NCBI RefSeq assembly: GCF_036365525.1
Contig: NC_090404.1
Location: 27,550,149 to 27,614,148 of the forward strand
Source: Heterodontus francisci
Lineage: Eukaryota
DNA: 64,000 nucleotides
Reading direction: 5' to 3'
Part shown: in pieces, positions 7,813 through 54,832 of the stretch
How the letters are laid out: every line of letters begins with the position of its first letter
How positions within the stretch are numbered: the stretch's first letter is position 1
Notes under the pieces: generated by a model
What the model was told of the DNA's origin: nothing
What the model saw: the letters and a program-made list of their open reading frames with translations, nothing else
Database searches by the model: none
Translations under genes and position numbers: made by a program

Positions 7813-7882
7813 ATGCACGGATCACCAAAAGGTCTGGTGTTTGCCATTTACTATCCTGTCCTTGCAGCTATCGGGGTTCCAG
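7813..7882 (+). CDS. GPR139-like class A GPCR copy A, coding exon 1 (MHGSPKGLVFAIYYPVLAAIGVP)
   Basis: ATG, then 70 nt ending CCAG|gtaaag (phase 1). Supplies the N-terminal half of TM1 and joins exon 2 as GVP-A-NL; near-identical exons at 48151 and 32004. Confidence 0.85.
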
Positions 7883-8399
7883 GTAAAGCATTGCAGTGAG
7901 TTATTAATTATGGGAATCATTGTTCAGTTATATAAATGCTCCCATTTATGTGTTGTGTTTCTCCAGGATGTGAATATTCTTTCTGTCAGTTAATGGCATT
8001 ATTTCTCATCTTTATGTAATATTCTTCCCCATTAAATGTGGTAATTAATTCCCTTTAACAGCATAATTTCTCCCCTTTAACAGGATAATTTATTCCCTTT
8101 AGTGAACAGCTTTCCCCTTTTAACTGATATCATTTCTCCCCTTTTAGAGAATCCTCTTTCCACTTTCATGATATTAATTATCCATTTTAACGATAAGCTC
8201 TTCCTTTTACAGACATAGTTTCTCATCATTAGTTATGCAATTTCTGCCCTTTAACAGTATAATTTCTCCACATCACTGGCACAGCACCTTAACATTACCA
8301 GCATAATTTCTCCTCTCTATAATACTATATTCTGTTGACCGGTAGAATTCCATCCCTTTAATTATATATTTTTTCTCACTTACCACTAACATCTCACGA

Positions 8400-10050
8400 A
8401 TTAAATGTAGTTCCATTGTGTTATTGACACTGAGAATATGGATGAATTATGACACTGTGACCAAAATATAAATTTATTTCCATTTGGTTATTGGCACTGT
8501 TACTGGGGGTGAATTATCATACTGCTATCATGGTGTAAAGGTAGCTGTATAGTGTTAATGTCACTGCTGCTGCGGGTGAAGTATCACAGTTATTAACATT
8601 GTTATTGTGGGTGAATTGTCACACTGTTATCACGGTGTAAATGTAGTTCTATTGTGCTATTGACACTGTTACTGTGGGTGAATTATCACACCGTTATCAT
8701 GGTGTAAATGTAATTGTATTGTGTTGTTGGTGCTGTTACTTTGAGAATTATCACACTGTTGTATCGGTTTAAATACAGCTCCATTGTGTAATAGACGTTG
8801 TTACAGTGGGTGGCTTGTCACATGTTATCACAGTGCTAATGTAGATGTACTGTGTTTTTGACACTGTTACCATGGTGTAAATGTAGTTCCATCATGTTAA
8901 AGACACACTTCTTCTTAGGCAATCCCTCCGGAATGAGGATGACATTCTTCCACTCCAGAGTTGCGGGTCCTTAGGTCACTGAATCGTCCAGTTCCAGATC
9001 TGCACACTCTGCCACAGATAGGGCAGTTAGTGTTTAATGAGGATGAATGGGATGCTCTTATTTCGAAATGCTTCTTCCACTGTTTGCGCTGGGTCACTGC
9101 CTGGGCATGTCGCCGTTGTTCGAACTGGATGACACCTTCGTGGATGCTTCTTCTCCCTTTTGAGCGGTCTCAGGCAAGAGATTCCCATGAATCAGTGGCG
9201 ATGTCACATTTTTTCAGGGAGGCTTTAAGGACATCCTTGTAGCGGTTCTTCTGTCCTCCTGGTAGCCTCTTGCCATGACAGAGCTCGGAGCAGAAAGTTA
9301 GTTTTGGGAGTCTTGTGTCAGACATGCGGACAATGTGGCCTATCCAACGTAACTGATTAACCATGGCCGGTGTCTGGATACTGGGGCTGTTGGGCTGAGA
9401 GAGGACACTGATATTAGAGCACCTGGAGTGTCAAACACTCTTTTCCACAGACAACAGAAGGCTGGGCTAGTACACTGGAGGCGATGCTAAGTTTCATCAT
9501 CGATGGCTGCCCTTTCTGAGAGAGGGCTCCCAAGGCATGAGAAGTGATTCATATTGTCCATTGTTTCGCCGTGGATCTTCAAAGATGGGAGGAAATATTG
9601 TACTGTGGGATCAGACTGGTAAAGGACTTTTGTCTTCCAGGTATTTAGCTTAAGGCCCATTCTTTCAAACACCTCAGTGAATGTATCGATGAGGGTTTGA
9701 AGCTGAGTGTGTGCATACCGCAAACATCATCAGCATACAGGAGTTCTATGATAGAGGTAATGGTGACCTTGGTTCTAACTGGAGGCAACTTGGTTAAATC
9801 ATTTCCTGCTCATCATATACAGTAGATCTACTCAGGCAGGGAGCTTCATAGAGATGAGGTGGAGTGTTGTGGTGAGGAAGATGGAAAAGAGCGTTGCTGC
9901 ATTTCCACAGCCTTGCTTGACCCTGTCACTGTCACTGTGCTGAATTATCAGACTGTTATCACACTGTAAATTGTGTTCCTGTCACATTACTGTAGGTGAA
10001 TTACCACACTCTTATCACGGTTTAAATATAGTTCTATTGTGTTATAGGCT
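8400..10050 (+). repeat. ~67-bp intronic minisatellite (interrupted by an RTE fragment)
   Basis: Repeats of ttattgacactgttactgtgggtgaattatcacactgttatcacggtgtaaatgtagttctattgtg. Confidence 0.8.
8905..9925 (-). mobile_element. 5'-truncated, degenerate RTE-clade LINE (different subfamily from 1640-6250)
   Basis: QLRWIGHIVRMSDTRLPK, C-terminal CPICGRVCRSGTGRFSDLR, ELLYADD region, GAA tail at the 3' end. Confidence 0.8.
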
Positions 10051-10450
10051 ACTCTTAGAAGAAGAGCTCAGAGTTATCATTGCGTCCTCTCACTTATTGT
10101 TAGCTGTTGTGTTATTTATCTCTTGAATATTTTCTGTACCTTTTTGCTGATGTATTACATTTCGGTCGTATTTGATGTTGCCGTGTTGGTTTCAACGTGT
10201 TTTAATGCCTTATTGTTCTGCATTAGTATTCATTGTATTATTTTACATTCTGATGACATTAGTCTGTTATATTCCTAATCTGAATGTTTGATTTAAACAC
10301 AGAAACAAGTGCTTGTAGCTTAAGCAACGGTTTTCAACTCAGGATCATGTGCCAAAGCGACTCTTTTTAGACAGAATCCTGTAAAACGGATGATTTCGTT
10401 GGGGCACGTGTGCACTCTTCATTTTCTTTCTCTCTCTCTCTCTGTTACAG

Positions 10451-11361
10451 CTAATTTGGCAGTGATTGTGATCCTGTCCCGAGGAAGATGTGGTCTCTCC
10501 AGATGTATCACTTACTATCTGATTTCCATGGCTGTAATGGATCTCCTACTTATTATCACTGCTGTGATATTAAACCGGATTGCTGCTATTTATTTCCCAT
10601 TCACTTTCTTGTCCATCACACCATTATGCAGCCTCCGTAATGCCCTCATCTATGCGATGATAGACGGTTCTGCCTGGTTAACGGTCACTTTCACTTTTGA
10701 TCGATTTGTGGCCATTTGCAGCCAGAAGCTGAAAATAAAATATTGCACCAAGAAAACGGCAACGCGGGTTATCGGAACAGTGTCTACGCTGAGCTTTCTA
10801 AAAAATATCTGCTTGTATTTTACTTATGAACCTTTGTACATAATTAGCAATGTACCCTGGTTCTGCGGCATAAAATTAATATATTATGTGTCACCTGCAT
10901 GGGCCGCATTTGACTGGATTCTTGTTAGTTTAACCCCTTGTCTCCCATTCATTTTGATTTTACTGCTCAATGCTCTGACTGTCAGACACATTCTAGTGGC
11001 CAGTAGAGCTCGCAGGAGACTCCGGGCCCACAGCAATGGAGAAAATAGGAGCGACCCAGAAATGGAGAAGCGGAGAAAGTCCATTATTTTACTCTTTGCC
11101 ATCTCGGGCAGTTTCATCCTCTTGTATTTACTGTATTTTATAACGATCCTCTATGTCCGAATTGCGAATGTCACTTATTATTCCGGTTCCAATTTTAGTG
11201 AATCAACATTTCTTCTGGAGGAAAATGGATATATGCTTCAGTTTTTGAGTTCCTGCATCAACCCATTTATTTATGCAGGAACCCAGAGAAAATTCACGCA
11301 GGAGTTAAAAAATGGGGTGAAATATCCATTGAATCTAATTGTTAAATTAGTTAAATCATGA
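10451..11361 (+). CDS. GPR139-like class A GPCR copy A, coding exon 2 (spliced protein 326 aa)
   Basis: Polypyrimidine tract + ttacag acceptor at 10450; seven hydrophobic segments; TM2 MAVMD, TM3 TFDRF, Cys pair (PLCS/PWFC), TM7 NPFIY; no stops. Confidence 0.92.
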
Positions 11362-28189: not shown

Positions 28190-29158
28190 TCATTCAAACA
28201 ATTTAACGATCAGACTCAGTGGATATGTCACTCCATTCTTTAAATCCTCTCTGAATTTTCTCTGCGCCCCTGCACAAATAAATGGATTGAAGCAGGAATT
28301 CAAAAGCTGAAGCATATATCCGCTTTGGTCCAGAATAAAATTTGATTCATTGAAATTGGAACCGGAAAAATAACTAAATTTCGCAATTCGGACATAAAGG
28401 AAATTTATAAGAAGTACCGAATGAAGCTGCCCGAGACAGAGGAGAGTTAAACGTTGCACTTTCTCTACTTCTCCACCTATAGTTCACTCCGATTCAGTTT
28501 TTTTTTATTCATTCATGGGATGTGAGCGTCGCTTGCTAGGCCAGTATTTATTGCCTATCCCTAAAATTTCTGCAGTGCTGTGGACCCGGAGTCTCCTGCG
28601 AGCTCTGCTGGCTGCTAAAATGTGCCTGACCGTCAGAGCGTTGAGCAGTAAAATCAGAATGAATGGGAGACAAATGGTTAAAATCTGGTGAATACAGTCA
28701 TATGTCGTCAATGCTGGTGACGTATAAAATATCAATCTTATGCTGCAGAACCAGGGCGTATTGTTAATAATATTCAACGGTTCAAAAATAAAATACCGGA
28801 AGGTATTTATTAAACGGCTCAGTGTGCAGACCGTTCCTATCGCACGAGCTGCCATTTTCTCAGTGCAGTATTTTATTTTCCGCTCCTGGCAACAAATGGC
28901 CATAAATCAATCAAAGGTGAAAGCGACCGTTACGCAGACAGAAGTCTATGATCGCAAAGTTTAGGGCAATATGGAAACTGCATATCGGTGTGATGGATAG
29001 AAAATTGAGTGGGAAATAAATACCAGCAATCCGGTTTAATATCACAATGGTGATCATGACCAGGAGATCCGTCACTGCCATGGCCACCAGGTAGTAAGTG
29101 ATACAACTGGAGAGACCGCATCTTCCTCGGAACAGGATCACAATCACTGCCAGGTTAG
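28190..29158 (-). pseudogene. GPR139-like GPCR copy B, exon 2 (pseudogene)
   Basis: ANLAVIVILFRGRCGL... to NPFIC...KLFE*; frameshift near 28935; retroposon tail inserted at ~28497-28565; TM6 region disrupted. Confidence 0.9.
28497..28565 (-). mobile_element. Short LINE/SINE 3' tail inserted in the GPCR pseudogene
   Basis: Reverse complement ttagggataggcaataaatactggcctagcaagcgacgctcacatcccatgaatgaataaaaaaaaa. Confidence 0.75.
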
Positions 29159-30369
29159 CTGTAATAGAGACAGAGAGAGACTGAGAGAAAGAGCATGTGT
29201 GAATGAACAAGAACAGGAAAATTACTGCTCTGATTCCAAAAAAAAACATAGTTTTACAGAATCCTGTGCGAAATGCACAGCTTTGACACATGATACTGAG
29301 TGAAAAACTATCGCTCAACCTCTGGATACTTGCTTCTGTGATTAAAATAAGCTGGATTAAAAATCGGACGGATCATAACATCGGAATGTAAAATACTACA
29401 GTCAAACATAATGGAGAACAAGAAAGCATCAGGAACCCATCGAAATCCATACAGGAACATCAAACAGACAGGGAAAATAATATTAGTAACATATTCTAAA
29501 ATGTATTTTGGGGGGTAAATAATACAATAACCGGTGATAAAAGTGTAAAATAACAGGAAAGTAGCAAAAACAGATTATATCCTGCTGTGGATGAAAAAGG
29601 TCCTCACCCAACGAATTACTGTAAAATGATTCAGCAGTGGTAAATTCGACTGTTAGGTTGTTCGAAAAGATTTTCAGAGAGAACCAAATGGACAATAAGT
29701 GTTTCATCACTCAGTGGAGGGGGTGTTCTTGAACACGCAATGATAACTCAGACACCTTCTCCTGTTAATCCCCTGGGAAATTCCGTGTTGACCTGCACCA
29801 GCAGAACTGGCAGGCGATGAGGGCTCATTCAGAGAAAGGGCCCTCCTATAATACAACAATTCCTCAGTACTGCACTGAGCTGCCAGCTTAGATGATCGAC
29901 TTAGTCCAATCGCTGGTATTGAAATTAAAACTTTTTGACTCAGATGTGAGACATGCCACAGTTATATAAAATTTGGAGGAAAGACTGAAGACGTGAACAG
30001 TCTGGGACATTACCAACGGTTTTGAGCAGAAGGAACATTTTCACTCAGTAGTGATCATTGTAGCAGCAGTTCATGTGGAAGAGGAAAGCTGGGTTGAAGC
30101 AGTGAGAGTTAGAGACTGAGAGCAGAAACACTGAGCGCTGTGAGTTTAGTGTAAGCACAGGTTCATTCATAAAACGATGACTTGTTGCAATGCTTATATT
30201 TCTGTGAACAGCTCGTTGTCTAATAATCCCCTTCAACGAATTCACTCATTACATTCAGTGAGGAATTATTTATTTGTTGAATAATTTCAATCAGTGAATC
30301 ATTTATGAAAATCAGACAGCCGCTCTCAATGTCATTTCTACAGGAGAACTCAACGTATATTGTGGTGGA

Positions 30370-31490
30370 AGTGATAATTCACTTACAATAACAGTGTCAA
30401 TAATACATTTACACTGTGATAAAAGTGTGAGAATTCGCTTGCAGTAACACTGTCAGTTACATAACATAACTACATTTGCACTGCGATAGCAGTGATAGGT
30501 CACACACTGTGTCAATAATACAATAGAACTACATTTACACCCTTATTACAGTGTGATAATTCACCCAAAGTAACAGTGTCAATAAGACAATAAAGCTACA
30601 TTTGCACCGTGATAGCAGTGTGATAATTTACCCACAGTAAGAGTGTCAGTAAAACAGTAGAACTACGTTTACACCATGATAATAGTGTGATAATACAACC
30701 AATGGAATAGTATCTATAACACAATATAACTACGTTACACCGTGGTAGCAGTGTGATAATTCACCCACAGTTAGTGTCAATAACACAATAGAACTACATT
30801 TACACTGTATTAATCGTGTGATAATTCACTCAAAGTAACAGTATCAATGCAGCGTAATGACAGCGTCATAATTCACCCACAGTAAGTGTCAATAACACAA
30901 CAGAATCACATTCATGCCTGATAACTGCCTAGCAGTTGGCAGGAAAAAAGACAGAAGTGCAAGGGGAGAGCCAATTGTGTAACAACCCCGGTAGCCAATT
31001 TTATCTGCAGCACCAGTGGAAAAGTTTGTCACTCTAGAATTGGTCTTTATAGCCACTCCAGGTGCTGCTTCACAATCCACTGACCACCTCCAGGTGCTTA
31101 CCCATTGTCTCCCGAGACAAGGAGGCCAAAGAAGAAGAAAAAAGAAGAATTCACCCAAAGTAACAGCATAATGACAGCGTGATAATTCACCCACAGTAAG
31201 TGTCAATAACACAACAGATCCACATTCATACCTGATAACAGTGTGATAATTCCCCCAAAGTAAAAGTATCAAAACACAATAAAACTACATTTACAGCGTG
31301 ATAAAGGTGTGATAATTCACCCACAGTAACAGTGTTAATAACACAATAGAACTACATTTACACCGTGATAACAGTGTGGTAATTCACCTATTGTAACAGT
31401 GTCAATGACACAATAGGACTATATTTACATTATGATAACAGTGTGATAATTCACCCACATTAAGTGTCTGCAATACAATAGAACTGCAGT
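30370..31490 (-). repeat. ~67-bp intronic minisatellite of GPCR copy B
   Basis: aataacacaatagaactacatttacaccgtgataacagtgtgataattcacccacagtaacagtgtc repeats; reverse complement of the array at 8400. Confidence 0.9.
30926..31148 (+). mobile_element. RTE 3' fragment within the minisatellite
   Basis: Matches the RTE 3' end; (gaa)n tail. Confidence 0.85.
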
Positions 31491-31938
31491 TAGTCTGTGA
31501 AATGGCTCAAGTACAAGGGAGATATTATACAGTTAGAAGTACGAAATTATGCTTTCAAGCAATAGAATGGACACTGGTTAAAGGGAAGATGATACTGCTG
31601 AAGAGGGGAAATATTGCCACCAAAGTGGAAAGTAATGCTTGAAAGCAGGAGAAATTATGCTGTTAATATAAAGAAATTATACCGCTAATGACACTTCTGA
31701 AAGGGAGAAATTAAAGTATTAATGACTAAAATCATATTAGCAAATTTCCAAAAAAATTATATTAAAATGGAGAAATAGAACCTGCAAAGTAGAAAAAATA
31801 ATACTATAAATGAGGAGAAAGCATCCCATTGAAGGAGAAAAGGATATAATTAAGGTGCAGAAGTGCTAGTGATAAGTAAGAGGAGTGATAAAGCTAATCA
31901 ATGATTTCCGTAACTAATATCTAAGTACAGTACTTTAC

Positions 31939-32004
31939 CTGGAACCCCAAGAGCTGCATGAACGGGATAGTAAATGGCAAACACCAGATCTTCGATCCGT
32001 GCAT
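31939..32004 (-). pseudogene. GPR139-like GPCR copy B, exon 1 (net 4-nt deletion, frameshifted)
   Basis: atgcacggatcgaagatctggtg...ccag|gtaaag is 66 nt versus 70 nt in copies A and C. Confidence 0.85.
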
Positions 32005-32073
32005 TTTTGTCAGAAGCTCTGAGCACGCTCTAAACTGCACTCAAAGATTGTTATACTGTTACCTGATGTCAGG

Positions 32074-34200: not shown

Positions 34201-34239
34201 TGATTTGTTATTCCACTATCACTCCAAATTTCTATCCCT

Positions 34240-34630: not shown

Positions 34631-35029
34631 ACATGCCTTCCATCAGTTGGAACCAGCCTTCTTGACAGAGACAGGAAGCTGCCTGGAAGACCAGCCAATG
34701 CACCCAGTATCTCGGTATGCATTCTATTAATTGCTCCTCAATATGCTGCCAAATCAAACTCCTTTGTAGTTGGCCCGTCGGTGACCTCGCCTGCTGGCAA
34801 GCTGGCAAATGAATCATACGTTACCCATGGCCTGGCTGCTGCCCACTCATGACCAATAGTTCGCTCTGTGCTGATCTAAAATCTATACTAGTGTCCATGT
34901 GACTTGCAGTGCCAGTATCTGAGCTAGTGGCTACCAGTATTAGATCAAATGACGGAGCCTCGCCTTCACTTCATTAATGCTGTGCTGTTGTAGTCAGCAC
35001 TCTCTCTCTCTCTTTCTCCTTCCTTCTCT

Positions 35030-36130
35030 CTTCCTCCTTGGGAAGTTGTGGTTGGGCAGATGGTAAGTCCTGTGTGTCTGCATGCAGCAAATCAGAAGGG
35101 AAAGGTTGGGATTAAAGAAGGCGAGCGTGGTGGCGAACACGTTGTCTATGGTCACACCATTTGCACCTTACATATCATGTCAGATGTTAGGATGATGGTG
35201 AGCTGGGTGTTGAGGAGGGACTTAAGACAGGAAAAAACCTTCATCTTCAATGTGCTCAGCAATGCCGAATGACATGGACTCTGTCATTGTCAGGCCCATG
35301 ATTTTGAGAACTATCTCATTTTTGGGCTCTGGAAATGCAGGTGTCCTTGTCCCCCGATTGCTCTGCTCTGCTCCTTTCTATTGTGCCCCCTTGAACTTCA
35401 GGGTGGAAGGCAGAATGTTAGTGATTCTGCAGCACTATGTGTGGGTGATATTCCTGCCATAGCGGAATGGCTGAAGGTAACTGGAGGCATAGAGAGAGGT
35501 GAATGTACGTCTAGAAGCACTGGTAGATGTGTGAGGGTAAGGTGGAGTGTCTGGATGTAAGGCCTGTGTCCTGAGTGCCAGCAGGTGCTGCTCGGTGAGT
35601 AATGGAGCTGTGGCGCATTCAAAAGAATGACAGGTTGCAGGTATGAGGATGGGTGACGTCATGTGTAGATGCATTCACTGACCTTGACCACCCACATGAA
35701 GTCATTGCACGTCTTGTGGCACTGCTGTCAGATCCCCAGGTTCTGTCACCGGACATTGACCTCCCACACCATATTTTCACATTCCATTCACAGGGTGGTC
35801 CTTCAGGGCCTCCCGGACCCATTCAGAACGATGACTGCTCCTTTCCTCCTGTCCAGCTCCGTCATTAATGCGCCCATCCGTCACCCTGCAACCCTTGCTC
35901 TGCCTTGGTATTTCTTCTTCCATCATTTAAGTTCCACCAATATTATTCAGTGTACCTTCCCTTTAAAAGGGACAGACTGTCTTTAAGAAGAGCAGGCTGG
36001 CTGCGCCAAGTGGTATCTGCACAACGGTGCTCAGTCCACTGATAAGCACAGAGGAAGCCAGAAGCGTGAAGAAGAAGGTAGCAGCACGGGACTCGCTCAT
36101 CCATAGGCTGCAAGCATGCACATGAGGTCA
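35030..36130 (-). mobile_element. PIF/Harbinger-type relic with Myb/SANT remnant
   Basis: RTW..QQCHKTCNDF on the minus strand (~35690-35770); colinear similarity to 13100-14250. Confidence 0.55.
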
Positions 36131-38400
36131 GAGAGTCATTACAGTATAGAGGGCATCATTTGACTCATCAATTCCATGCCAGTTCTCTGTAGAGCAATCT
36201 AGTCAGTCCCATTCTCACTGCTCTATTCCTGTATTTCATTAAAGTTTGTTTTCTTCAAAGGCCTATCCAATTTTCTTTTGAAATCAATCACCCATCACCC
36301 TTGTTGGGTGTGAGTTCCAGGTCGTTACCATTGCCTGTGTAAAAAAAAGTTTTCCCTCGCACCCCATTTCTCTTGCTCAAAACTTTAAATCTGTAACCCT
36401 CTAGTCCTTTTACTATCAGTCAGTGAGAACAGCTTTTCTTTGTCTACCTTATCTAAGTCTGCCATAATTGTGTATATCTCTATCAAATTACCCCTCAATC
36501 TCTTTTGTCTAAAGGAGAAAGCTCCAGCTTCTCCAACATAAACGGGAAGCTAAATTCCCTCATCCCTGGAAGAATTGTGCCAAATCCCCTCTGCACTCAC
36601 TCAAGGTCCCTCACATTCTCCCTGAAGTATAGTGACCAGAACTGGACAGAGCTTTGTAAAGGTTCAGCATAACGTCTGGTGAATTTTCAAGCAAAAACCA
36701 AGCCAAATATAGCATTTGTGAAGGAAAGTGAAGAAGAAAATAAGACTAGCAAAGTGAGAATAGTTAACATAAAATCAAACCCAAAACTCATCAACCAGCA
36801 GATAAATAGCAGGTAGATTTCTATAATAAGGGTTTCACATTTGCCACTCTCCAATCCTCTGGCATCTTCCCCGTATCTAGTAAAGATTATGCAAAGTACT
36901 TCTGCTATATTCACTCCAACTTTCCATAGCAACTTGCATCCTGGGAAGCAAGCCATCCAGATCTGCAACGCATCCACTTTAAGCATAGCCAGTCTTATAA
37001 GTACAATCTGTCTTTCAATTTTCACCCCATCCATTAGCTCTACTATCTCCACAGGTAGTAAGAGATGATTTTTACCTAGAGAAGTAAGGCAAGGCTCGAA
37101 TACGTATTGGGCACTTTGCATCTGTATTTACTAAGGAAGAGGGTGGTGATAAAATAAGGGTAGAAGCGAAGATAGTAAAGTAAGAGTGGTTGCACCAATG
37201 ATTTATAAAGAGGCAGGATCTTTCACTTTCTCGGCACTATATTGACCTTTTCATACATGACAACATCTCATCTGCTTTGCTCATTATTGCAATAGCTTCA
37301 ATTTATTGCCAGACAGAAAGCCCAGATCTTTTTCACTTTCCATGCAAATTAATTACTTTTCATTTAAGTGATACTCTGTTCCAGGATTTCTTGCCTCAAT
37401 GTGACACACTTGGCTTTTCCTCTATATTGAATGTCACCTGTCACCTGTCTGCCCAATTTCCAAGTGCTAGATCCTCCAGAGGCTTATCCTGTTGATCTTT
37501 GCAGTCTACCATCTTCATCAGCATTGTTTCCTCTGCAAATTTAACCAGAGTTCTTGCGACTCCCGGTTTCAGATCTTTTATAAATAGCTTCCAAAAAATC
37601 GGATCAAAATAGATTTTTGTGGGACCCCACTGTTAGCATTTGCCAGTCTGATGACAATCCCTGCATCAACACCTTTTTGGCTGTATTGATCTACCAATCA
37701 CGACTCGCTTGCAAAGTATTTCTACTGATTCCTACTGTGTTTCTTTTCATTTCCACCCAAAGGCCTACAGAAATGCAAGTGCATCACATCCACTGGCTTA
37801 CCCCAATCAAGCTCCTTCGTCACATGCTCGAAGTAAATTAGTGAACGAAGTAAGCAAGGCTTTCTCTTCATGAACACATGTTGTCTATAATTTAAGGTTA
37901 TAATTCTATCCAGATGTTCCATAATTTTTACTTTAATCAGGGTTTCCACAAGCTTTCCCACAATGGGCATCTAATTCACTGGTACGTAGTCTCCTTGTCA
38001 CTTTTGCTAGCTTCTTTTTTCAACATTGGCGCTGAATCTGTCTTTCTCTGGTCCCCAGTCACCTCCCCAGTATTCAACAATTTCTCAAAGATTTATGACC
38101 CAGGTCTGGCTATTATCTCCCTTATTTGCATTAAGCTTATCGAATGCATCTTATCTGGGCCTATGATTGATTCATCTAATGTTTTCCAGCTGTTCTTTAA
38201 CCATGCTGGAGCAACTTACCTCTGAAACACCCTCTAGTTACCATTTCCAGATCAAATCTATCTATTACCTGTTCCCTCTTTTGTAGAAACTGAAGGAAAA
38301 TACTTATTTAACGCTTTGCAGTCTGACTCTCATCTTTTGACATAGCCTCCGCCGATCACATTTTCAGTGGCCATACTCGATTCATGGTTTTACTTTTTTT
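36130..38400 (-). mobile_element. Cluster of old CR1 fragments (3' end, an oppositely oriented ORF2 piece at ~36690-37170, RT piece)
   Basis: IVGKLVETLIK...QHVFMKRKPCL...GKPVDVMHLHF; CR1 3' UTR at 36140. Confidence 0.7.
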
Positions 38401-38551
38401 CTCTCTCTTAATTTAACTAAAGAAAACGGAGGTTCTACTCTCCTGTCATATTCAACGTGATTTTTTTCATTGCTACCTTTATGTCCGTTTCACACTCCAA
38501 GCATGGCTTTTTGTATTGAATTCACCTGCAACACTCACTGTGCCGCCCAAA

Positions 38552-38561
38552 AGTGACGTCA
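38552..38561 (+). promoter_or_regulatory. CRE / TCR V-promoter decamer-like motif AGTGACGTCA
   Basis: Palindromic TGACGTCA ~90 nt upstream of a candidate leader donor site (ag|gtaaaag at ~38650) and ~700 nt upstream of the V exon. Confidence 0.4.
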
Positions 38562-38974
38562 GAAAACTTAGATGGAGGGCTTCCTGTTTCTTCATCTCCA
38601 GTCCTAGTATTAGATCCATCTTAATTCTGTGTCATTTTCCTTCCTGTAGGTAAAAGCTTTATTACTTTCAGTAAACTCCTGGCTTTCAGGGTCATGGTAG
38701 CCCTTAATTCTTCTCAGTACATCAAGGTGCAGTCACTAGGGTGGGGTATTTATGTTGGTGGAAACAAAAAATCATTATTAATGTCAGATAATTATATAAT
38801 TGACTGTAAATTGTAAAACACCCTTTGACTTATATTGTAAGTTCATTAAATGCTTACATTAAATTCAGACAATATAAGATTTATTACAATTTGTGTTAGC
38901 AACAGTGGAGAAACCTGTCAATATAAAGGAAGAGGGGTAGAGTAATTGGATAGGATAAAAATAACTTGCAGCAA

Positions 38975-39258
38975 GGGCTGTTCATTTTACAGTCAATTGA
39001 CACCCTCTCTGTACTAATACTTTGTCTTTCACCACACCATTAACATACCGTTTGCCTTTGTTCCATGACCTTGTCCTATCAACACCTTCTCTTTTGTTAT
39101 CTCTTGTCCCACCTCCTCTTTACTTGCTTAAAACATTTTACATCTCTAATATTTGTCAGTTCTGATGAAGGGTCATTGACCTGAAACGTTAACTCCGCTT
39201 CTCTCTGCACGGATGATGCCAGATCTGCTGAGTATTACCAGCATTTCTTGTTTTAATT
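38975..39258 (+). mobile_element. Penelope terminal repeat fragment replacing the 5' part of the V exon
   Basis: Homologous to 26680-27000 and to the reverse complement of 57230-57530. Confidence 0.8.
39158..39194 (+). ncRNA. Minimal type I hammerhead ribozyme motif (Penelope-associated)
   Basis: Stem I agtt/aact; core CUGAUGA; stem II gggtc-att-gacct; GAAAC-GUU with palindromic stem III (aacgtt). Confidence 0.7.
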
Positions 39259-39493
39259 ACAACTTTAGACTGCATCTATTTCACTACCAAGAGTTCCTAC
39301 TGTGGGTCCGGCAATATGCCGACGCAGAACCAGAGATTCTACTTCGCGAGTTTTCAGGTGGTTACCAAATTAAAGCAGATTTTGATCGAAGCCATTTTTC
39401 CTCTGCCCTGGGCACCTCGAATGCCATATTCACCTTAACAGTGTCCAAACTGCGACCCGTTGACGCGGCCAGGTATTACTGTGCATTGAGTCT
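39259..39493 (+). pseudogene. T-cell receptor alpha/delta-type variable (V) gene segment, truncated and frameshifted
   Basis: TLDC(1st Cys, 39271)IYFTTKSSY / frameshift / LW(39303)VRQYADAEPEILL...FTLTVSKLRPVDAARYYC(39480)ALS, directly followed by an RSS. Confidence 0.85.
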
Positions 39494-39532
39494 CACAGCG
39501 GGAGAAACCACTTAGACCCTCGTACAATAACC
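39494..39532 (+). other. V(D)J recombination signal sequence, 23-bp spacer
   Basis: Heptamer CACAGCG (39494-39500), exactly 23-nt spacer, nonamer ACAATAACC (39524-39532); one mismatch each to CACAGTG and ACAAAAACC. Confidence 0.9.
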
Positions 39533-40349: not shown

Positions 40350-43300
40350 AAACCATTCAGAAGACAGATCAGGCAGAAGCCGGATCAGTCAGAAAGCGGA
40401 TCACACAGAAGCTGAAACTGTTAGAAGTCAAAGCAGTCAGAAACTGAATCAGATAGAAACGAAATCAGACAGAAGCCGGATCAGACAGAATCTGTATCAG
40501 TCATAAGCCGGATCAGTCAGAATCTGGATCAGACAGATCTGTAACAGTCAAAAGCCGGATCAGACAGAAGTCAGATCAGATAGAAGCTGGATCAGACAGA
40601 TCTGTAACAGTCAGAAGCTGGATCAGTCAGAAGCCGGATCAGACAGAAGCTGGATCAGACAGAAACCGGATCAGTCAGAAGCTGGATCAGTCAGACGCCG
40701 GATCAGTCAGAAGCTGGATCTGTCAGAATCTGGATCAGTCAAAATCTGGATCAGACAGAAACCAGATCAGCCAGAATCCAGATCAGTCAGAAGGTGGATC
40801 AATCAGAGGCTGGATCAGTCATAATCCAGATCAGTCAAAATCCGGATCAGACAGAAACCGGTTCAGTCAGAATCTGGATCCCACAAAATCTGTATCAGTC
40901 ATAAGCTGAATCAGTCAGAAACTAGATCAGTCAGAAGCCAGATCAATCAGAAGCTGGATCAGTCAGAATTCCATCAGGCAAAATCCGGATCAGTCAGAAG
41001 CTGGATCAATCAGTGGCTGGATCAGTCAAAATCTGGATCAATCAGAAGCTGGATCAATCAGAAACTGGATCAGTCAGAAGCCAGATCAATCAGAGGCTGG
41101 ATCAGTCAGAATCTGGATCAGTCAGAATTCCATCAGGCAAAATCCGGATCAGTCAGAAGCCAGATCAATCAGTGGCTGGATCAGTCAAAATCTGGATCAA
41201 TCAGAGGCTGGATCAGTCAGAATCTGGATCAGTCATAAGCCGGATCAGTCAGAATCTGGATCAGACAGATCTGTAACAGTCAAAAGCCGGATCAGACAGA
41301 AGTCAGATCAGATAGAAGCCGGATCAGACAGATCTGTAACAGTCAGAAGCCGGATCAGTCAGAAGCCAGATCAGACAGAAGCTGGATCAGACAGAAACCG
41401 GATCAGTCAGAAGCTGGATCAGTCAGACGCCGGATCAGTCAGAAGCTGGATCTGTCAGAATCTGGATCAGTCAAAATCTGGATCAGACAGAAACCGGATC
41501 AGTCAGAATCCAGATCAGTCAGAAGGTGGATCAATCAGAGGCTGGATCAGTCATAATCCAGATCAGTCAAAATCCGGAACAGACAGAAACCGGTTCAGTC
41601 AGAATCTGTATCCGACAAAATCTGTATCAGTCATAAGCTGAATCAGTCAGAAACTAGATCAGTCAGAAGCCAGATCAATCAGAAGCTGGATCAGTCAGAA
41701 TTCCATCAGGTAAAATCCGGATCAGTCAGAAGCTGGATCAATCAGTGGCTGGATCAGTCAAAATCTGGATCAATCAGAAGCTGGATCAATCAGAGGCTGG
41801 ATCAATCAGAGGCTGGATCAGTCAGAATCCAGATCAGTCAAACTCTGGATCAATCAGAACCTGGATCAATCAGAAACTGGATCAGTCAGAAGCCGGATCA
41901 ATCAGAACCTGGATCAATCAGAAACTGGATCAGTCAGAAGCCGGATCAATCAGAACCTGGATCAATCAGAAACTGGATCAGTCAGAAGCCGGATCAATCA
42001 GAGGCTGGATCAGTCAGAAGCCAGATCAATCAGAGGCTGGATCAGTCAGAATCTGGATCAGTCAGAATTCCATCAGGCAAAATCCGGATCAGTCAGAAGC
42101 CAGATCAATCAGTGGCTGGATCAGTCAAAATCTGGATCAATCAGAGGCTGGATCAGTCAGAATCTGGATCAGACAGATCTGTAAAAGTCAAAAGCCGGAT
42201 CAGACAGAAGTCAGATCAGATAGAAGCTGGATCAGACAGATCTGTAACAGTCAGAAGCCGGATCAGTCAGAAGCCGGATCAGACAGAAGCTGGATCAGAC
42301 AGAAACCGGATCAGTCAGAAGCCGGATCAGTCAGACGCCGGATCAGTCAGAAGCTGGATCTGTCAGAATCTGGATCAGTCAAAATCTGGATCAGACAGAA
42401 ACCGGATCAGTCAGAATCCAGATCAGTCAGAAGGTGGATCAATCAGAGGCTGGATCAGTCATAATCCAGATCAGTCAAAATCCGGATCAGACAGAAACCG
42501 GTTCAGTCAGAATCTGGATCCGACAAAATCTGTATCAGTCATAAGCTGAATCAGTCAGAAACTAGATCAGTCAGAAGCCAGATCAGTCAGAAGCTGGATC
42601 AATCAGAAACTGGATCAGTCAGAGGCCAGATCAATCAGAGGCTGGATCAGTCAGAATCTGGATCAGTCAGAATCTGGATCAGTCAGAATCCAGATCAGTC
42701 AAACTCTGGATCAATCAGAACCTGGATCAATCAGAAGCTGGATCAGTCAGAATTCCATCAGGCAAAATCCGGATCAGTCAGAAGCTGGATCAATCAGAGG
42801 CTGGATCAGTCAGAAGCCAGATCAATCAGAGGCTGGATCAGTCAGAATCTGGATCAGTCAGAATTCCATCAGGCAAAATCCGGATCAGTCAGAAGCTGGA
42901 TCAATCAGAGGCTGGATCAGTCAGAAGCCAGATCAATCAGAGGCTGGATCAGTCAGAATCTGGATCAGTCAGAATTCCATCAGGCAAAATCCGGATCAGT
43001 CAGAAGCCAGATCAATCAGTGGCTGGATCAGTCAAAATCTGGATCAATCAGAGGCTGGATCAGTCAGAATCTGGATCAGTCAAACTCTGGATCAATCAGA
43101 ATCTGGATCAATCAGAAACTGGATCAGTCCGAAGCTGGATCAATCAGAGGCTGGATCAGTCAGAATCTGGATCAGTCACAATCCGGACCAATCAGGAGCT
43201 GGATCAATCAGAAACTGGATCAGTCAGAAGCCAGATCAATCAGAGGCTGGATCAGTCAGAATCTGGATCAGTCAGAATCCGGATCAGTCAGAATTCGGAT

Positions 43301-48150: not shown

Positions 48151-48220
48151 ATGCACGGGTCAGCAAAAGGTCTGTTGTTTGCCATTTACTATCCCGTCCT
48201 TGCAGCTATCGGGATTCCAG
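48151..48220 (+). CDS. GPR139-like class A GPCR copy C, coding exon 1 (MHGSAKGLLFAIYYPVLAAIGIP)
   Basis: ATG, 70 nt, CCAG|gtaaaa donor, phase 1. Confidence 0.85.
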
Positions 48221-48815
48221 GTAAAATATTGTAGTTATTAGTTATGGGATCATTCATTAGCATGGTCACTGCTCTTATTTACCACTAGCATTTCTCCACG
48301 TTATGGATATGCAATCCCCCCTTTCATGTGATAATTTCTCCATTTTAATGGGAAAAAATTTTCCCTCCATTTGGTATAATTTCTCCTTTTATACGATATC
48401 GTTTTTTCCACTTTAAAGGTATTATTTCCTCAATTTACTGATATAATCTATCGTCATAAATGATATAATTTCGCCTTTTTAGAAGTGTAATTTCTCCCCA
48501 TTGCTGGTATCATTTTTTTTTTTACATTGCCATTCTAATTTCTTCCACTGTACAGTATCATTTCCGACTTTGGCAGCACAATTTCTCCTCTTCAGCGGTA
48601 TAATTTTCCCCTTAACCAGTATAATTTCTCCTGCTTAAATGTACAATTTAGTGCTGCGCACAGAATAATTTAAGCCCTTAACTTGAGCCATTTCACAGTG
48701 CAAATGTATTTATATTGTGTCACTGACACTGTTTACTGTGGGTGAACTATCACACTGTTATCATAGTGTACATTTCAACGTACTGTGTTGTTGACACTGT
48801 TACTGTGGGTGAATT

Positions 48816-51800
48816 CTTTGGCAGCCTTGTCTCGAGAGACAATGGGTAAGCGCCTGGAGGTTGTCAGTGGTTTGTGCAGCAGCGCCTGGAGTGGCTATAA
48901 AGGCCAATTTTAGAGTGACAGACTATTCCACAGGTGCTGCAGATAAGATTGGTTGTCGGGACTGTTACACAGTTGGCTCTCTCCTTCCGCTTCTGTCTTT
49001 TTTCCTGCCAACTGGTAACTCTCTTTGACTCGCCATGCTTTAGCCCCGCCTTTATGGTTGCCCGCCAGCTCTGGCGATCACTGGCAACTGACTCCCACGA
49101 CTTGTGATCAATGTCACAGGACTTCATGTCATGTTTGCAGACGTCTTTAAAGTGGAGACATGGATGGTCGGTGGGTCTGGTACCAGTGACGAGCTTGCTG
49201 TACAATGTGTCCTTGGGGATCCTGCCATCTTCCATGTGGCTCACATGGCCAAGCCATCTCAGGCGCCGCTGGCTTAGTAAGGTGTATATGCTGGGGATGT
49301 TGGCCACCTCGAGGACTTCTGCGTTGGAGTTATGTCCTGCCATCTGATGCCAAGGATTCTCTGGAGGCAGTAAAGATGGAATGAATTGAGACGTCTCTCT
49401 TGGCTGACGTACGTTGTCCAGGCCTCACTGCCATAGAGCAAGGTACTGAGGACACAGGCTTGATACACTTGGACTTTTGTGTTCTGTGTCAGTGCGCCAT
49501 TTTCCCACACTCTCTTGGCCAGTCTGGACATAGCAGAGGAAGCCTTTCCCATGCGCGTGTTTAATTCTGCATCGAGAGACAGGTTACTGGTGATAGTTGA
49601 GCCTAGGTAGGTGAACTCTTGAACCACTTCCAGAGTGTGGTCGCCGATATTGCTGGATGGGGCATTTCTGACGTCCTGTCCCATGATGTTCATTTTCTTG
49701 AGGCTGATGGTTAGGCCAAATTCATTGCAGGCAGCCGCAAACCTGTCGATGAGTCTCTGCAGACACTCGTCAGTGTGAGATGTTATTGCAGCATCATCAG
49801 CAAAGAGGAGTTCCCTGATGAGTACTTTCCGTACTTTGGTCTTCGCTTTTAGACGGGCAAGGTTGAACAACCTGCCACCTGATCTTGTGCGGAGGAAAAT
49901 TCCTTCTTCTGAAGACTTGAACGCATGTGAGAGCAGCAGGGAGAAGAAGATCCCAAACAGTGTAGGTACGAGAACACAGCCCTGTTTCACGCCACTCAGG
50001 ATTGGAAAGGGGTCTGATGAGGCGCCACTATGCTGAATTGTGCCTTTCATATTGTCATGGAATGAGGTGATGATACTTAGTAGCTTTGGTGGGTATCCAA
50101 TCTTTTCTACTAGTCTGAAGAGACCACGTCTGCTGATGAGGTCAAAGGCTTTGGTGAGATTAATGAAAGCAACACAGAGGGGCATCTGTTGTTCATGGCA
50201 TTTCTCCTGTAGCTGGTGAAGGGAGAACAACATGTCAATGGTGGATCTCTTTGCTCGAAAGCCACACTGTGCCTCAGGATAGACAAGCTCAGCCACCTTC
50301 TGGAGCCTGTTTAAGGTGACACAAGCGAAGACTTTCCCCACTATGCTGAGCAGGGAGATTCCACGGTAGTTGTTGCAGTCACCGCGGTCACCCTTTTTCT
50401 TATAGAGGGTTTTGATATTGGCATCGCGCATGTCCTGTGGTACTGCACCCTCGTCCCAGCACAGGCAAAGCAGTTCATGCAGTGCTGAAAGTATATCAGG
50501 CTTGGCACTCTTGATGATTTCAGGGGTAATGCCGTCCTTCCCAGGGGCTTTTCCGCTGGCTAGAAAATCAATGGCATCATTGAGTTCCGATTTTGTTGGC
50601 TGTACGTCCAGCTCATCCATGACTGGCAGAGACAGGCTGCATTGAGGGTGGTCTCAGTGACAACATTCTCCCTGGAGTACAGTTCTAGGTAGTGTTCCAC
50701 CCAATGGTCCATTTGCTTACGTTGGTCAGTGATTGCGTCCCCTGATTTAGATTTGAGGGGGGCAATCTTCTTGATGGTTAGCCCAAAAGCTCTCTTAATG
50801 CTTTCACACATTCCTCTGATATTTCCTGTGTCAGAGACCAGCTCAGTATGACTGCATAGGTGTTGCCAGTAGTCATTTGCACAGCACCTGGCTGTTCTTT
50901 GTGCCGCGCTTCTGGCAGCTTTAAATGCTACAGATGTTAACTCGCTGGGGGCTTTCTTGTAGTTTAGCAGGGCAATGCACTTAGCGGCTATGACAGGTTC
51001 CAGCTCTTCAATGTGAGATTGAAACCAGTCTGCATTCCTCTTCAAACGATTACCATAGGTGGTCATTGCTGGGTCATAGATTTAGACTCTGACGTGGGCC
51101 CACTTGGTCTCTGCATCCCCTGTGGGAGTGTTTTGAAGGGCTTTTTCATGTGAATTTAGAAACTTGCGTAACAGCTATGGATGAGAAATTCTGCTCGTGT
51201 TGATGCACAGGCAGCCCTTCTGCTTGTTTGATTTGAGTCTAACTTCGCTCCACACCAGGGAGTGGTCGGTGTCACAGTCCGCACTTTGGAAGCTGCGTGT
51301 GATTTGAACACTGTTTAAAGAGGCTCACCTTGTAACAATGAGGTCCAGCTGGTGCCAATGACGTGATGTTGGGTGCCTCCAAGAAACCTGGTGACAGGGT
51401 TTAGTGTGAAAGAACGAGTTGGTGATGCAGAGGTTATGATAGGTACACAACTCAAGCTGTCTCTGTCCATTCTCATTCATTCTTCCAATGCCAAAGCGCC
51501 CAAGGCAGGAGGGCCATGAGTCATGGTCGGCCCCAACCCTGGCATTAAAGTCCCCCAGCAGGAATAGGTGTTCGGTATTGGGGATGCTACTAGTGATATT
51601 ATGGAGTCCCTCATAGAACTGGTCTATAGCTTCAGGTGGGGAGCAGAGTGTTGGAGCATAGATGCTGAGTAGGTGTACTGGACCAGAGGCAGTGAGCAGT
51701 CGGATGGACAGTATGCGTTCTGAGCCATTTGAGGGTGGCTCTATCATGCTGAGCAAAGAGTTTCTGATGGTGAAGCCCACTCCGTGCTGTCTTGGTTCTT

Positions 51801-52366
51801 CAGGATCCCAACCCTGCCAGAAGAAGGTGTAGTCTTGCTCTCTTAGAGATCCGCTCGCAGGGAGGCGTGTCTCCTGAAGTGCTGCAATGTCTACATTGAG
51901 TCTACTGAGCTCGTTGTTAATGATGGCGGTCTTCCGAGAATCGTTGATTTGTGTAAGGTCTTCCAACAGGCCAGGACACATAGTTCTGATGTTCCAGCTT
52001 GCAAAACGAAGGGCTGGCATCTTCTTTCCTTTTTTGGTCGTGCTGTTTGGTGCGGTGTTACAGTCCACTTGTCTGGCAATGACCCTGAGCTCCAAGCACC
52101 CATTGAAGCAGGTGAACTGCAGCGGGACAGAACCTTACTGACCGGGGGTGCATGGTTTGAGGTGGGCGGTAGCTGTCCAGTGAGACGTGATGACCTCTCC
52201 CACCGACAAAGGCAGTCCATGGCACCCAGTCTCTACGTGAATTGAGCTGGACTTATAACCCGTAACTGCTGCCTGCCGTGTTGATTTGGTCGCTGTGAGG
52301 TGACTATGGAGTGACCTCTCCATGACGCATGCCTGGGCGTATGTATGGAGGTTGTGAGTGACTTGC
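48816..52366 (-). mobile_element. Degenerate near full-length RTE LINE in the intron of GPCR copy C
   Basis: ORF pieces 51325-52095, 50560-51066, 49274-50620 and 48864-49343 are colinear with the intact RTE ORF; several frameshifts; flanked by 67-bp minisatellite units. Confidence 0.92.
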
Positions 52367-53524
52367 CACACGGTTATCACAGTGTAAATGGAGATCTATT
52401 ATGTTAATGGCATTGAGAGCGGCTGTCTGCTTTTCCAAAGGATTCACCGATTGAAATTATTCAACAATTAAATAATTCCTGACTGAATTTAAGGAGTGAA
52501 TTCATTGAAGGAACATTATTAGGCATCGGGTTGATAATAGAAATATAAGCAATGTGATAAGTGGCCGTTTTATGAATGAATCTGTACTTACCCTAAATTC
52601 ACAGTGCTCAGTGTTTCTGTTCTCAGTCTTTAATGCGCACTGCTTCAGCCTGGCTCTCCTCTTCCAACAGTCGCTGCTACTGACTGTTCTGCAGTGACCA
52701 CTATTATGTCCGAATGTTCCTTCTGCTCTAAGCTCCTGACAATGTCCTGGACTGTTCCCACCTTCAAATTTTTTTCCATAATTTCTATAACTGGTGGTAT
52801 CTCTCGCATCTGCGTCAAAAAAGTTTAATTTCAACACCCACTATAGGACTAAGCTGATCATCTCTGCCGACAGCGCAGTGCAGTGCTGATGAACTGCTGC
52901 CCTGTAGGAGCAAGCTTTCTCTGAATGAGACCTCACCACCTACCACTTCCGCAGGCATAGGTGCACAACGGAGATCCCACGGACTAACAGGGGAAATGGT
53001 CAGAGTTATTAGTGCATCTTCAAAAACATCCCCTCTGCAAAGTGTGAAAATGTTAATTGTCTGTTTAGTTCTCTCTGCTTGAGGATCCTTTCGAAAAAGT
53101 TGACAGTCGAGTTTTCCAACAGTGAATCATTTTACAATAATTTGTTAGGGTGAGGGTCTTTTAGATCCTCAGCAGAATATAATCCATTTTAAATGCAAGT
53201 TTTTACTACTTTCCTTTTAGTTTCCACTTTTATTGTCAGTAATTGTATTGTTTACTCTCTTAAATATCTTCCATAATATATTACTTATGTTATTTTCTTC
53301 CTGTCTGTTTGATGTTCCCATTTTGGTTCAATGAGTTTGTAATGCCTTTTTGTTCTCCATTCTGTTTGATTGTATTATTTTACATTCCGATGTTATTGAT
53401 CTCTCTGAATTTTCATGCAGGTGATTATTTTAAACACAGAAACAACTGCCCAGATGTTAAGCGATACTTTTCCATCCAGTATCAGCTGTCAAAGTTGTGA
53501 ATTTCACACATAACTCTGTGAAAC

Positions 53525-53820
53525 GGGCGGCACAGTGGTGCAGTGGTTAGCACTGCAGCCTCACAGCTCTAGTGACCCGGGTTCACTTCTGGGTACTGCC
53601 TGTGCAGAGTTTGCAAGTTCTCCCTGTGATCCACGTGGGTTCAGCCAGGTGCTCCGGTTTCCTCCCAAAGCCAAAAGACTTGCAAGTGATAGGTAAATTG
53701 GCCATTGTAAATTGCCCCTAGTGTAGGTAGGTGGTAGGGATTACTGTATGGTGAGTATAAATGGGTGGCTGTTGGTTGGCATAGACTCGAGGGGCTTGTT
53801 TCAGTGCTGTATCTCTAAAT
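53525..53820 (+). mobile_element. tRNA-derived V-SINE (HE1-like)
   Basis: Box A tggtgcagtgg, box B ggttcacttct, V-domain gtttgca..ttctccc...ggtgctccggtttcctccca; absent from the paralogous introns. Confidence 0.85.
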
Positions 53821-53924
53821 AAAACAGATGATTTTGTTGGGAGTCGGACCAGTAATAGTCCTGTTCTTGCTCGCTGACACATGTACACTGTTCCGCTTTC
53901 TCTTAGCCTCTTTCTCTATTACAG

Positions 53925-54832
53925 CTAACCTGGCAGTGATTGTGATCCTGTCTCGAGGAAGATGCGGTCTCTCCAGATGTATCACTTACTATCTGATGTC
54001 CATGGCAGTGACAGATCTCCTGGTTATGATCACTGTTGTGATATTAAACCAGATTGCTAGTATTTATTTCCCAGACACTTTTCTGTCCATCACACCTGTA
54101 TGCAGTCTCCGTAATGCCCTAAGCTTTGCGATCATAGACAATTCTGTCTGGTTAACGGTCGCTTTCACCTTTGATCGATTTATAGCCATTTGTTGCCAGA
54201 AGCTGAAAATAAAATACTGCACAGAGAAAACGGCGGCGTGGGTTATAGGAACGGTCTGCACACAGAGCTGTTTAAAAAATACTTTCCGGTATTTTATAAT
54301 GGAACCTTTGCTTATAATTGACAATATACCCTGGTTCTGCATCATAAAATTAACATTTTATACGTCACCTGCATGGGTCGCATATGACTGGATTTATTCC
54401 CTTTTAACCCCTTGTCTCCCATTCATTCTGATTTTACTGTTCAATGCTCTGACAGTCAGACACATTCTAGTGGCCAGTAAAGCCCGCAGGAGACTCACAG
54501 CCCACAGCAATGGAAAGAATCAGAGTGACCCAGAGATGGAGAAACGGAAAAAGTCCATCGTTTTACTCTTCTGCATCTCGTGCAGTTTCATCCTGTTATA
54601 TTTGGTAGTTCTTATAAATTTCCTTTTTATCCGAATTGCGAAATTAAGTTACTTTTCTGGTTCCAATTTCAATAAATCAAATGTTATTCTGGACCAAAGC
54701 GGATATATGCTTCTGCTTGTGAGCTCCTGCATCAATCCATTTATTTATGCAGGGACCCAGAGAAAATTCAGAGAGGAGTTAAAGAATGGAGTGAAATATC
54801 CACTGAGTCTAATTGCTAAAATGTTTCAGTGA
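53925..54832 (+). CDS. GPR139-like class A GPCR copy C, coding exon 2 (spliced protein 325 aa)
   Basis: ttacag acceptor at 53924; MAVTD, TFDRF, PVCS/PWFC, NPFIY; open to the TGA at 54832. Confidence 0.92.

What the first reader, a model, noticed from the sequence alone, without database searches (positions are those of the whole stretch)
39259..39532. TCR alpha/delta-type V segment with a near-canonical 23-RSS embedded among the GPCR genes
Seen: the Ig-V hallmarks (Cys, WVRQ, D-x-A-x-YYC-ALS) are followed directly by CACAGCG-23 nt-ACAATAACC. I saw no D, J or C segment in the window. Established: mammalian TRA/TRD loci are flanked by, and partly interspersed with, olfactory receptor genes. Inference: the window may be the edge of the TCR alpha/delta locus (or an orphon). 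In that case a different GPCR family occupies the position ORs hold in mammals, which suggests an old or convergent linkage between antigen receptors and receptor clusters.
Basis: partly seen in the sequence, partly recalled or inferred. Interest (0 to 1): 0.75.

Follow-up and report, generated by a model that had tools for sequence, protein, structure and literature searches.

The report
Dead shark TCR gene among receptors
A broken, truncated shark T-cell-receptor gene segment that keeps its recombination signal lies between orphan G-protein-coupled receptor genes, and database records suggest this receptor cluster likely shares a chromosome with the T-cell-receptor locus in several sharks, loosely echoing the smell-receptor genes beside that locus in mammals.

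Summary
The V segment and its 23-spacer RSS are real; it is the only site within two mismatches of consensus in 64 kb (0.07 expected). But the gene is broken. Cys23 is out of frame with Trp41/Cys104, because 7 bases present in ~85%-identical paralogues are missing. A high-copy retroelement tail replaces the leader and most of FR1. Best single-domain hits are chondrichthyan TCR alpha/delta V genes. No other V, J or C lies in the window. It is probably not the locus edge: earlier scan notes (unchecked) put TCR V arrays 14-19 Mb away on the same piece, and remote alpha/delta V segments are already published for sharks (PMC12227049). The linkage holds at chromosome scale: close relatives of the window's 'GPR139-like' receptors share a record length with TCR-alpha genes in whale shark and horn shark (possibly the source genome), and probably catshark chr17. 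The receptors are not olfactory receptors and also occur on other chromosomes. The scan has already reported this receptor family on other DNA. Verdict: an ordinary pseudogene marking a linkage I did not find described; convergence is likelier than homology.

The parts
39256..39297 (+). V remnant, end of FR1 and CDR1 (ITTLDCIYFTTKSSY; Cys23 at 39271-39273), in a different frame from the rest
   Evidence: matches TLxCTYDT of shark alpha/delta V genes weakly (best E 0.013)
39297..39298 (+). Frameshift site: 7 bases fewer than in paralogous contigs
   Evidence: table 4; 32+7=39 nt gives a 13-codon Cys-Trp spacing as in 4 of 7 relatives checked
39298..39493 (+). V remnant FR2-CDR2-FR3 (Trp41 39303, Asp98 39462, Cys104 39480)
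39494..39500 (+). RSS heptamer CACAGCG
39501..39523 (+). 23-nt RSS spacer
39524..39532 (+). RSS nonamer ACAATAACC
38964..39255 (+). Very high-copy retroelement tail abutting the V in place of leader and FR1; no clear target-site duplication
   Evidence: 73-78% identical to three near-full copies in the window; two lie just beyond or near a GIY-YIG-like ORF (E 7e-4, under cut-off; 'Penelope-like' is my recalled label); summed depth 1e5-1e6 against about 10 for unique DNA
38616..38963 (.). Older interspersed repeat left of the element (74% copy at 15766-16118); not a V leader or FR1
7813..11361 (+). GPCR gene A, two exons (about 7813-7887 and 10435-11361), exon 2 open
28193..32031 (-). GPCR gene C, two exons (about 31931-32031 and 28193-29174), frameshifted; exon 1 lies 7.2 kb from the V
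48151..54832 (+). GPCR gene B, two exons (about 48151-48222 and 53900-54832), exon 2 open; exon 1 lies 8.6 kb behind the nonamer

Best explanation
This is a frameshifted, 5'-truncated TCR alpha/delta-type V segment with a near-consensus 23-RSS, likely non-functional and likely a stranded outlier on the shark antigen-receptor chromosome, probably left inside a GPCR gene tract by duplication or rearrangement at a retroelement. Shown: V type, RSS, 7-base loss, loss of leader and FR1 at a high-copy element, no J or C within 64 kb, position between two head-to-head GPCR genes. Inferred: a copy of a small V family (two paralogues seen) was carried into, or engulfed by, the expanding GPCR array; the element marks a deletion or recombination breakpoint rather than a clean insertion, since the left flank is unrelated repeat. 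Without promoter and leader it would not be transcribed or give a receptor chain, though the RSS might still be a RAG substrate. The GPCR array and the TCR alpha/delta locus likely share one chromosome in several sharks; I read the likeness to mammalian OR-TRA/D linkage as convergent co-location of birth-and-death gene families.
For: Frame break and truncation. Paralogues carry the 7 bases, and one aligns only from 39256 with 26 unaligned letters before it, so it lacks the element there. Of 10 listed coding sites where both paralogues share another letter, 6 change the residue, several away from the family consensus (read by hand from the 40 of 54 rows shown; codons). Type: best single-domain hit is chimaera P0010 (50%, E 2.7e-10), then bamboo shark, horn shark and sawshark alpha/delta-type V; the tree puts it sister to P0010 (81/84) in the group with named TCR-alpha VJC chains, apart from IgL and VH. 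Linkage: whale shark TCR-alpha VJC XP_048475117 and 5 of 7 listed whale-shark receptor hits are on records of 11,734,621 bp; horn shark V genes XP_067869908/9 and 63 of 85 listed receptor hits are on 59,489,666 bp; 2 of 2 catshark hits are on 133,841,611 bp, and the published AgR chromosome 17 runs to at least 133.54 Mb. Remote and pseudogene alpha/delta V segments are published: about 9 Mb from TCR-alpha C in white shark, about 29 Mb from PSMB5 in catshark (PMC12227049 section 6 and Table S1).
Against: No assembly was available, so same-chromosome position rests on unchecked scan notes and on matching record lengths, not coordinates. Horn shark may be the source genome (earlier notes say so), so it is not independent; catshark chr17 is matched by length only. 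In epaulette shark the TCR-alpha record (5.1 Mb) and the one listed receptor hit (16.7 Mb) differ. The receptor family also sits on four other horn shark records (10, 8, 2 and 2 of 85 rows), and the query biases hits to its own cluster. All supporting species are galeomorph sharks. Tree support is modest (64 columns), one NITR domain fell inside the TCR group on a long branch, and TCR beta/gamma were absent. How the V got here is not shown; paralogue positions are unknown.
Confidence: 0.72

Rival explanations
1. The window is the outer edge of the TCR alpha/delta V array, with usable V genes interspersed among GPCR genes as TRAV1 is among ORs in mammals.
For: RSS near consensus; alpha/delta type; shark V groups are scattered over megabases; scan windows are sparse (171 in the genome), so nearer V genes could be missed; paralogues with an unbroken frame at this site exist and are unmapped.
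Against: This copy is broken twice; no other V, J or C in 64 kb; noted V arrays are 14-19 Mb away, with a GPCR cluster noted in between (unchecked).
Confidence: 0.12
2. A true orphon: the V fragment was moved by retroelement-linked transposition to a chromosome unrelated to TCR alpha/delta, like opossum TRMV-OR2.
For: Leaderless V with RSS among retroelements, as described for TRMV-OR2 (PMC2275272 passage); receptor clusters exist on several chromosomes.
Against: Scan notes put TCR V arrays on the same piece; the closest receptor relatives share record lengths with TCR-alpha genes in two or three species.
Confidence: 0.07
3. The segment belongs to another V class (NAR-TCR-supporting V delta, TCR beta or gamma, IgL).
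For: A 23-RSS is shared by several classes (established knowledge); the leader is absent as in NAR-TCR-supporting V; one automatic Atlas cluster name was TVB29; TCR beta/gamma untested in the tree.
Against: No CDR1 Cys in the Cys23 frame up to the break, whereas supporting V has one (PMC1845163); it falls outside the 97/89 clade holding the sawfish NAR-V-linked V, and outside IgL and VH; top tblastn scores are all alpha/delta-type.
Confidence: 0.06
4. The frameshift or truncation is an assembly error and the gene is intact.
For: The confirming runs may be the assembly's own source; the contig at the element-V junction reaches 30 bases into the element, one short of the tool's bridging rule.
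Against: Short-read contigs match the window with 0-1 differences across the break (X1 record 6, X2 record 14; X2 record 1); the 7-base form is on contigs about 85% identical, or too short to place, not on an otherwise identical allele.
Confidence: 0.03

Closest known systems
Dispersed TCR alpha/delta-type V segments of the elasmobranch antigen receptor complex, AgRC (Flajnik et al. 2025, PMC12227049; sections 6 and 15 and Table S1 read)
   Same: Alpha/delta-type V exons, some labelled pseudo, lying in small groups megabases from the TCR core on the same chromosome.
   Different: There they are described between IgH clusters; GPCR neighbours are not mentioned in the main text or the two supplementary files. 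Here the V is single, broken and flanked by GPCR genes.
Mammalian TRAV1 interspersed with olfactory receptor genes at the 5' end of TRA/D (PMC2275272, passages)
   Same: A TCR alpha-type V among class A GPCR genes on the TCR chromosome.
   Different: TRAV1 is a conserved orthologous V at the locus edge, and that paper finds the OR synteny in human, mouse, cow and opossum but not chicken. This V is dead and probably far out; the neighbours are two-exon 7tm_1 receptors, not ORs.
Orphon V genes such as opossum TRMV-OR2 (PMC2275272, passages)
   Same: Leaderless, non-functional V with RSS among retroelements, away from J and C.
   Different: TRMV-OR2 has a complete V at 95-96% identity to functional genes; this one is truncated, about 85% like its paralogues and probably on the parent chromosome.
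[quoted passage not shown]
   Same: Window receptor B is 84-86% identical to horn shark and 70% to whale shark members.
   Different: The name is automatic: human GPR139 scores only E 4.9e-6.
OR clusters near the MHC of mammals and chicken (PMC8813856, passages)
   Same: Sawfish MHC chr34 lists 13 genes named 'probable GPR139', ten in a row beside MHC-Ib, TRIM39-like and tRNA genes.
   Different: Whether those sawfish genes belong to the window's family was not tested; only the machine name is shared.

Membership tests
Functional germline TRAV/TRDV gene | Cys23, Trp41 and Cys104 in one open frame | tested here: not met
   Cys23 in another frame; 7 bases missing against paralogues
Functional germline TRAV/TRDV gene | Leader exon, intron and full FR1 | tested here: not met
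   V begins at about 39256 behind a repeat; no FR1 or leader hit in 30000-39320 with 13 N-terminal queries beyond the TLDCIY piece
Functional germline TRAV/TRDV gene | 3' RSS with 23-nt spacer | tested here: met
Functional germline TRAV/TRDV gene | Closest relatives are alpha/delta V genes | tested here: met
   TCR beta/gamma references were lacking
Functional germline TRAV/TRDV gene | In cis with TRAJ/TRDJ and C | tested here: inconclusive
   None in the window; no genome held; indirect support from record lengths and scan notes
Functional germline TRAV/TRDV gene | Found rearranged in T-cell transcripts | not testable with these tools
   No RNA holder listed; tissue of the guessed RNA runs unknown
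NAR-TCR-supporting V delta | Conserved Cys in CDR1 (PMC1845163) | tested here: not met
   CIYFTTKSSY up to the break; the paralogues' 7 bases add no Cys
NAR-TCR-supporting V delta | Upstream NAR V(D)J cassette; clade membership | tested here: not met
   No second V in the window; outside the 97/89 clade with P0048 (that P0048 is NAR-TCR is my reading of its sequence)
NAR-TCR-supporting V delta | Natural lack of leader | tested here: inconclusive
   The 5' end is lost at a retroelement
Olfactory receptors (neighbours) | OR profile 7tm_4 and single coding exon (recalled features) | tested here: not met
   Only 7tm_1 at E up to 0.1; two coding exons
GPR139 orthologue (neighbours) | High similarity to vertebrate GPR139 | tested here: not met
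   29 bits against human GPR139, below CCR2 at 34 bits; no receptor tree built
Orphon | Outside the main locus and unable to rearrange productively | tested here: inconclusive
   Broken and alone in 64 kb; locus limits unknown

The most novel reading that the evidence does not exclude
The shark antigen-receptor chromosome, and perhaps the MHC, carries a conserved multi-megabase array of an undescribed GPCR family interleaved with TCR alpha/delta V segments. It would fill the place that OR arrays hold at mammalian TRA/D and MHC, so that unrelated large receptor families settle repeatedly beside recombining immune loci because they share a chromatin regime (silenced by default, one-of-many choice), or descend from a receptor array on the proto-MHC/AgR chromosome.
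Probability: 0.2. Interest if true: 0.7.

Novelty: new variant of a known kind. Interest (0 to 1): 0.4.

Why it matters
The pseudogene itself matters little. It marks that a large, machine-named GPCR array likely shares the chromosome on which shark IgH and TCR alpha/delta genes lie, a region argued to be the cradle of antigen receptors. If the interleaving is conserved, it gives a second, independent case of receptor arrays beside rearranging loci and makes a standing question testable: is OR linkage to TRA/D and MHC inherited, selected or a by-product of where big gene families can grow? It also warns that automatic V counts in sharks include dead, remote segments with good RSSs.

Tried and rejected
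The word-based homologue search with the V found no candidate; no evidence either way. PDB searches were dominated by multi-domain scFvs and did not type the V. The Atlas gave V-set only. I first read 38555-38650 as a TCR promoter decamer and leader and 38900-38950 as FR1; rejected because the stretch is a repeat with a V-less copy at 15766-16118, the ATG is not kept in other copies and stops are shared. A 5-base TAATT near both ends of the element is not at its left edge; not accepted as a target-site duplication. No RNA holder listed; three guessed RNA runs gave no cover of the V core; no evidence on expression. No CTCF-like motif behind this RSS: 12 matches in the window against 10.4 by chance, none near it (motif recalled). 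White shark and catshark MHC sheets have no name column, so the sawfish parallel could not be extended. Literature searches for the linkage returned no paper describing it; the library lacks most subscription papers.

Full report
Observation. The segment is real. A heptamer CACAGCG (39494-39500), a 23-nt spacer and a nonamer ACAATAACC (39524-39532) follow D-A-A-R-Y-Y-C-A-L-S directly. It is the only site with at most two mismatches to the RSS consensus on either strand of the window; 2 of 30 shuffles gave one. Pfam V-set scores E 1.3e-5, 25.8 bits against a cut-off of 26. tblastn with 190 Ig-type proteins finds nothing else credible in the window.

The gene is broken. The Cys23 codon (39271) lies in the frame ITTLDCIYFTTKSSY, while Trp41 (39303) and Cys104 (39480) lie in another. 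Contigs from runs of the same sample show a form with 7 more bases behind 39297. That gives 13 codons from Cys to Trp, as in 4 of 7 relatives checked; the others have 11-12. The longer of these contigs differs at 46 letters and 9 gap letters over 331, and two more differ at 35 and 28 letters over 237, so they are paralogues, at least two. Contigs matching the window at 0-1 letters also span the site. These runs may be the assembly's source, so this argues against a consensus error but is not independent. At 10 listed coding sites both paralogues share another letter; 6 change the residue, among them E, D and H where the aligned family mostly has K, A and R (40 of 54 rows shown; codons; alignment). 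The sample is small and the polarity is assumed.

The 5' end is gone. V similarity starts at about 39256. Bases 38964-39255 are a very high-copy element; two of its copies lie just beyond or near a GIY-YIG-like ORF (weak), so I call it a Penelope-like tail from recall. One paralogue aligns only from 39256, with 26 letters before it unaligned, so it lacks the element there. Left of the element is an older repeat with a V-less copy at 15766-16118 and a decayed LINE. No leader or FR1 start was found in 30000-39320, and there is no clear target-site duplication. The element therefore looks like a breakpoint, not a simple insertion (inference).

Type of V. In a full HMMER search (90 hits at E up to 0.001) the best single-domain hit is a chimaera V (P0010, 50%, E 2.7e-10); higher-ranked rows are multi-domain proteins summing several stretches. 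Of 10 hits looked up, 8 are from chimaera, bamboo shark, horn shark or sawshark, one of them a full chain named TCR alpha; one is coelacanth and one unnamed. A tree of 71 domains (64 columns; selected from 234 extracted: rows I could label plus three unlabelled) places the V sister to P0010 (81/84) in the group with the named TCR-alpha chains (83/78), outside IgL (93/92), VH (88/29) and the clade with a sawfish NAR-V-linked V (97/89). Limits: few columns, a NITR domain inside the group on a long branch, no TCR beta or gamma rows. It lacks the CDR1 cysteine of NAR-TCR-supporting V delta (PMC1845163, passages).

Neighbours. Three two-exon class A GPCR genes: A (+, exon 2 open), C (-, frameshifted) and B (+, exon 2 open). 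The V lies between the first exons of C and B, 7.2 and 8.6 kb away. They match Pfam 7tm_1 only, and human GPR139 only at E 4.9e-6. Gene B has 2398 homologues at E up to 1e-20; the best 120 are all from sharks and rays, mostly machine-named 'probable GPR139'.

Linkage. No genome was held, so I compared record lengths. Whale shark: a V-J-C chain named TCR alpha (XP_048475117; V-set plus C1-set) and 5 of 7 listed receptor hits lie on records of 11,734,621 bp. Horn shark: alpha/delta-type V genes XP_067869908/9 and 63 of 85 listed receptor hits lie on 59,489,666 bp; the eight of these looked up have accessions 067869931-067870217. The other 22 lie on four other records. Earlier notes call this genome horn shark, so that row may be the window's own chromosome. 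Catshark: 2 of 2 hits lie on 133,841,611 bp, and the published AgR chromosome 17 has genes up to 133.54 Mb; this is a match by length only. Epaulette shark: TCR alpha on 5.1 Mb and the one listed receptor on 16.7 Mb, which gives no support. The query favours its own cluster, and equal length is not a coordinate. Earlier scan notes (unchecked) put TCR V arrays 14.1 and 18.8 Mb before the window and receptor clusters at -6.8, -0.5 and +4.5 Mb on the same piece. They moved me from 'edge' to 'deep in a receptor tract on the same chromosome'.

What is known. Flajnik et al. 2025 (PMC12227049; abstract, sections 6 and 15, Table S1 whole) report alpha/delta-type V exons between IgH clusters; their table has such V genes, some pseudo, about 9 Mb from TCR-alpha C in white shark and about 29 Mb from PSMB5 in catshark. 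GPCR terms do not occur in its text or two supplementary files. Mammalian TRAV1 lies among ORs, a synteny not found in chicken (PMC2275272, passages). ORs lie near the MHC in mammals and chicken (PMC8813856, passages). The sawfish MHC gene list (PMC10751288; passages, term searches and part 18 of 98 of the supplement) has 13 genes named 'probable GPR139', ten in a row beside MHC-Ib genes; family identity untested. Passages of the whale shark (10.1101/685743) and catshark (PMC11979771) genome papers stress few ORs and did not mention this family in what I saw. PMC5931798 and PMC12698447 (passages) added nothing on the linkage. Seven searches found no description of it; subscription papers on the nurse shark locus (Criscitiello 2006, Deiss 2019, Ott 2021; recalled, not seen) and supplements not opened could bear on this.

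Mechanism and verdict. Most likely a copy of a small alpha/delta V family ended up inside an expanding GPCR array on the antigen-receptor chromosome, lost its 5' half at a retroelement and took a 7-base deletion; it would make no chain, and its RSS has simply not yet decayed (0.72). Because the receptors are unrelated to ORs and occur on several chromosomes, convergence is the better reading of the mammalian parallel. The V is a new member of a known kind; the neighbourhood is a variant I did not find described. Interest 0.4.

Noticed in passing
window 40357-43914: 16-bp satellite (about 223 copies, 77% matches, unit TCAGAAGCCGGATCAG) starting 0.8 kb behind the RSS; it gives long spurious ORFs.
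   Followed up: no
window 1709-4918 (-): Stop-free 1069-aa endonuclease plus reverse transcriptase LINE ORF; a decayed 85-90% relative at 48867-52056.
   Followed up: partly
window 57232-60804 (-): Long retroelement with a GIY-YIG-like ORF and two copies (57232-57529, 60507-60804) of the tail that cuts the V.
   Followed up: partly
PMC10751288 Sup File 3, sawfish chr34 10.1-13.7 Mb: 13 genes named 'probable GPR139' inside the MHC: two flank a C4-like gene, ten run in a row beside MHC-Ib, TRIM39-like, tRNA and U1 genes.
   Followed up: partly
window 39300-39494 and P0010: The V groups with a chimaera V (81/84), hinting at an alpha/delta V subfamily older than the shark-chimaera split.
   Followed up: partly
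window 38616-38963 and 15766-16118: Old repeat whose copies, including several contigs elsewhere, stop matching at the same point, 38963-38964; identity unknown.
   Followed up: partly
window 28193-32031 (-): Third GPCR copy with frameshifts in both exons, consistent with birth-and-death turnover.
   Followed up: partly
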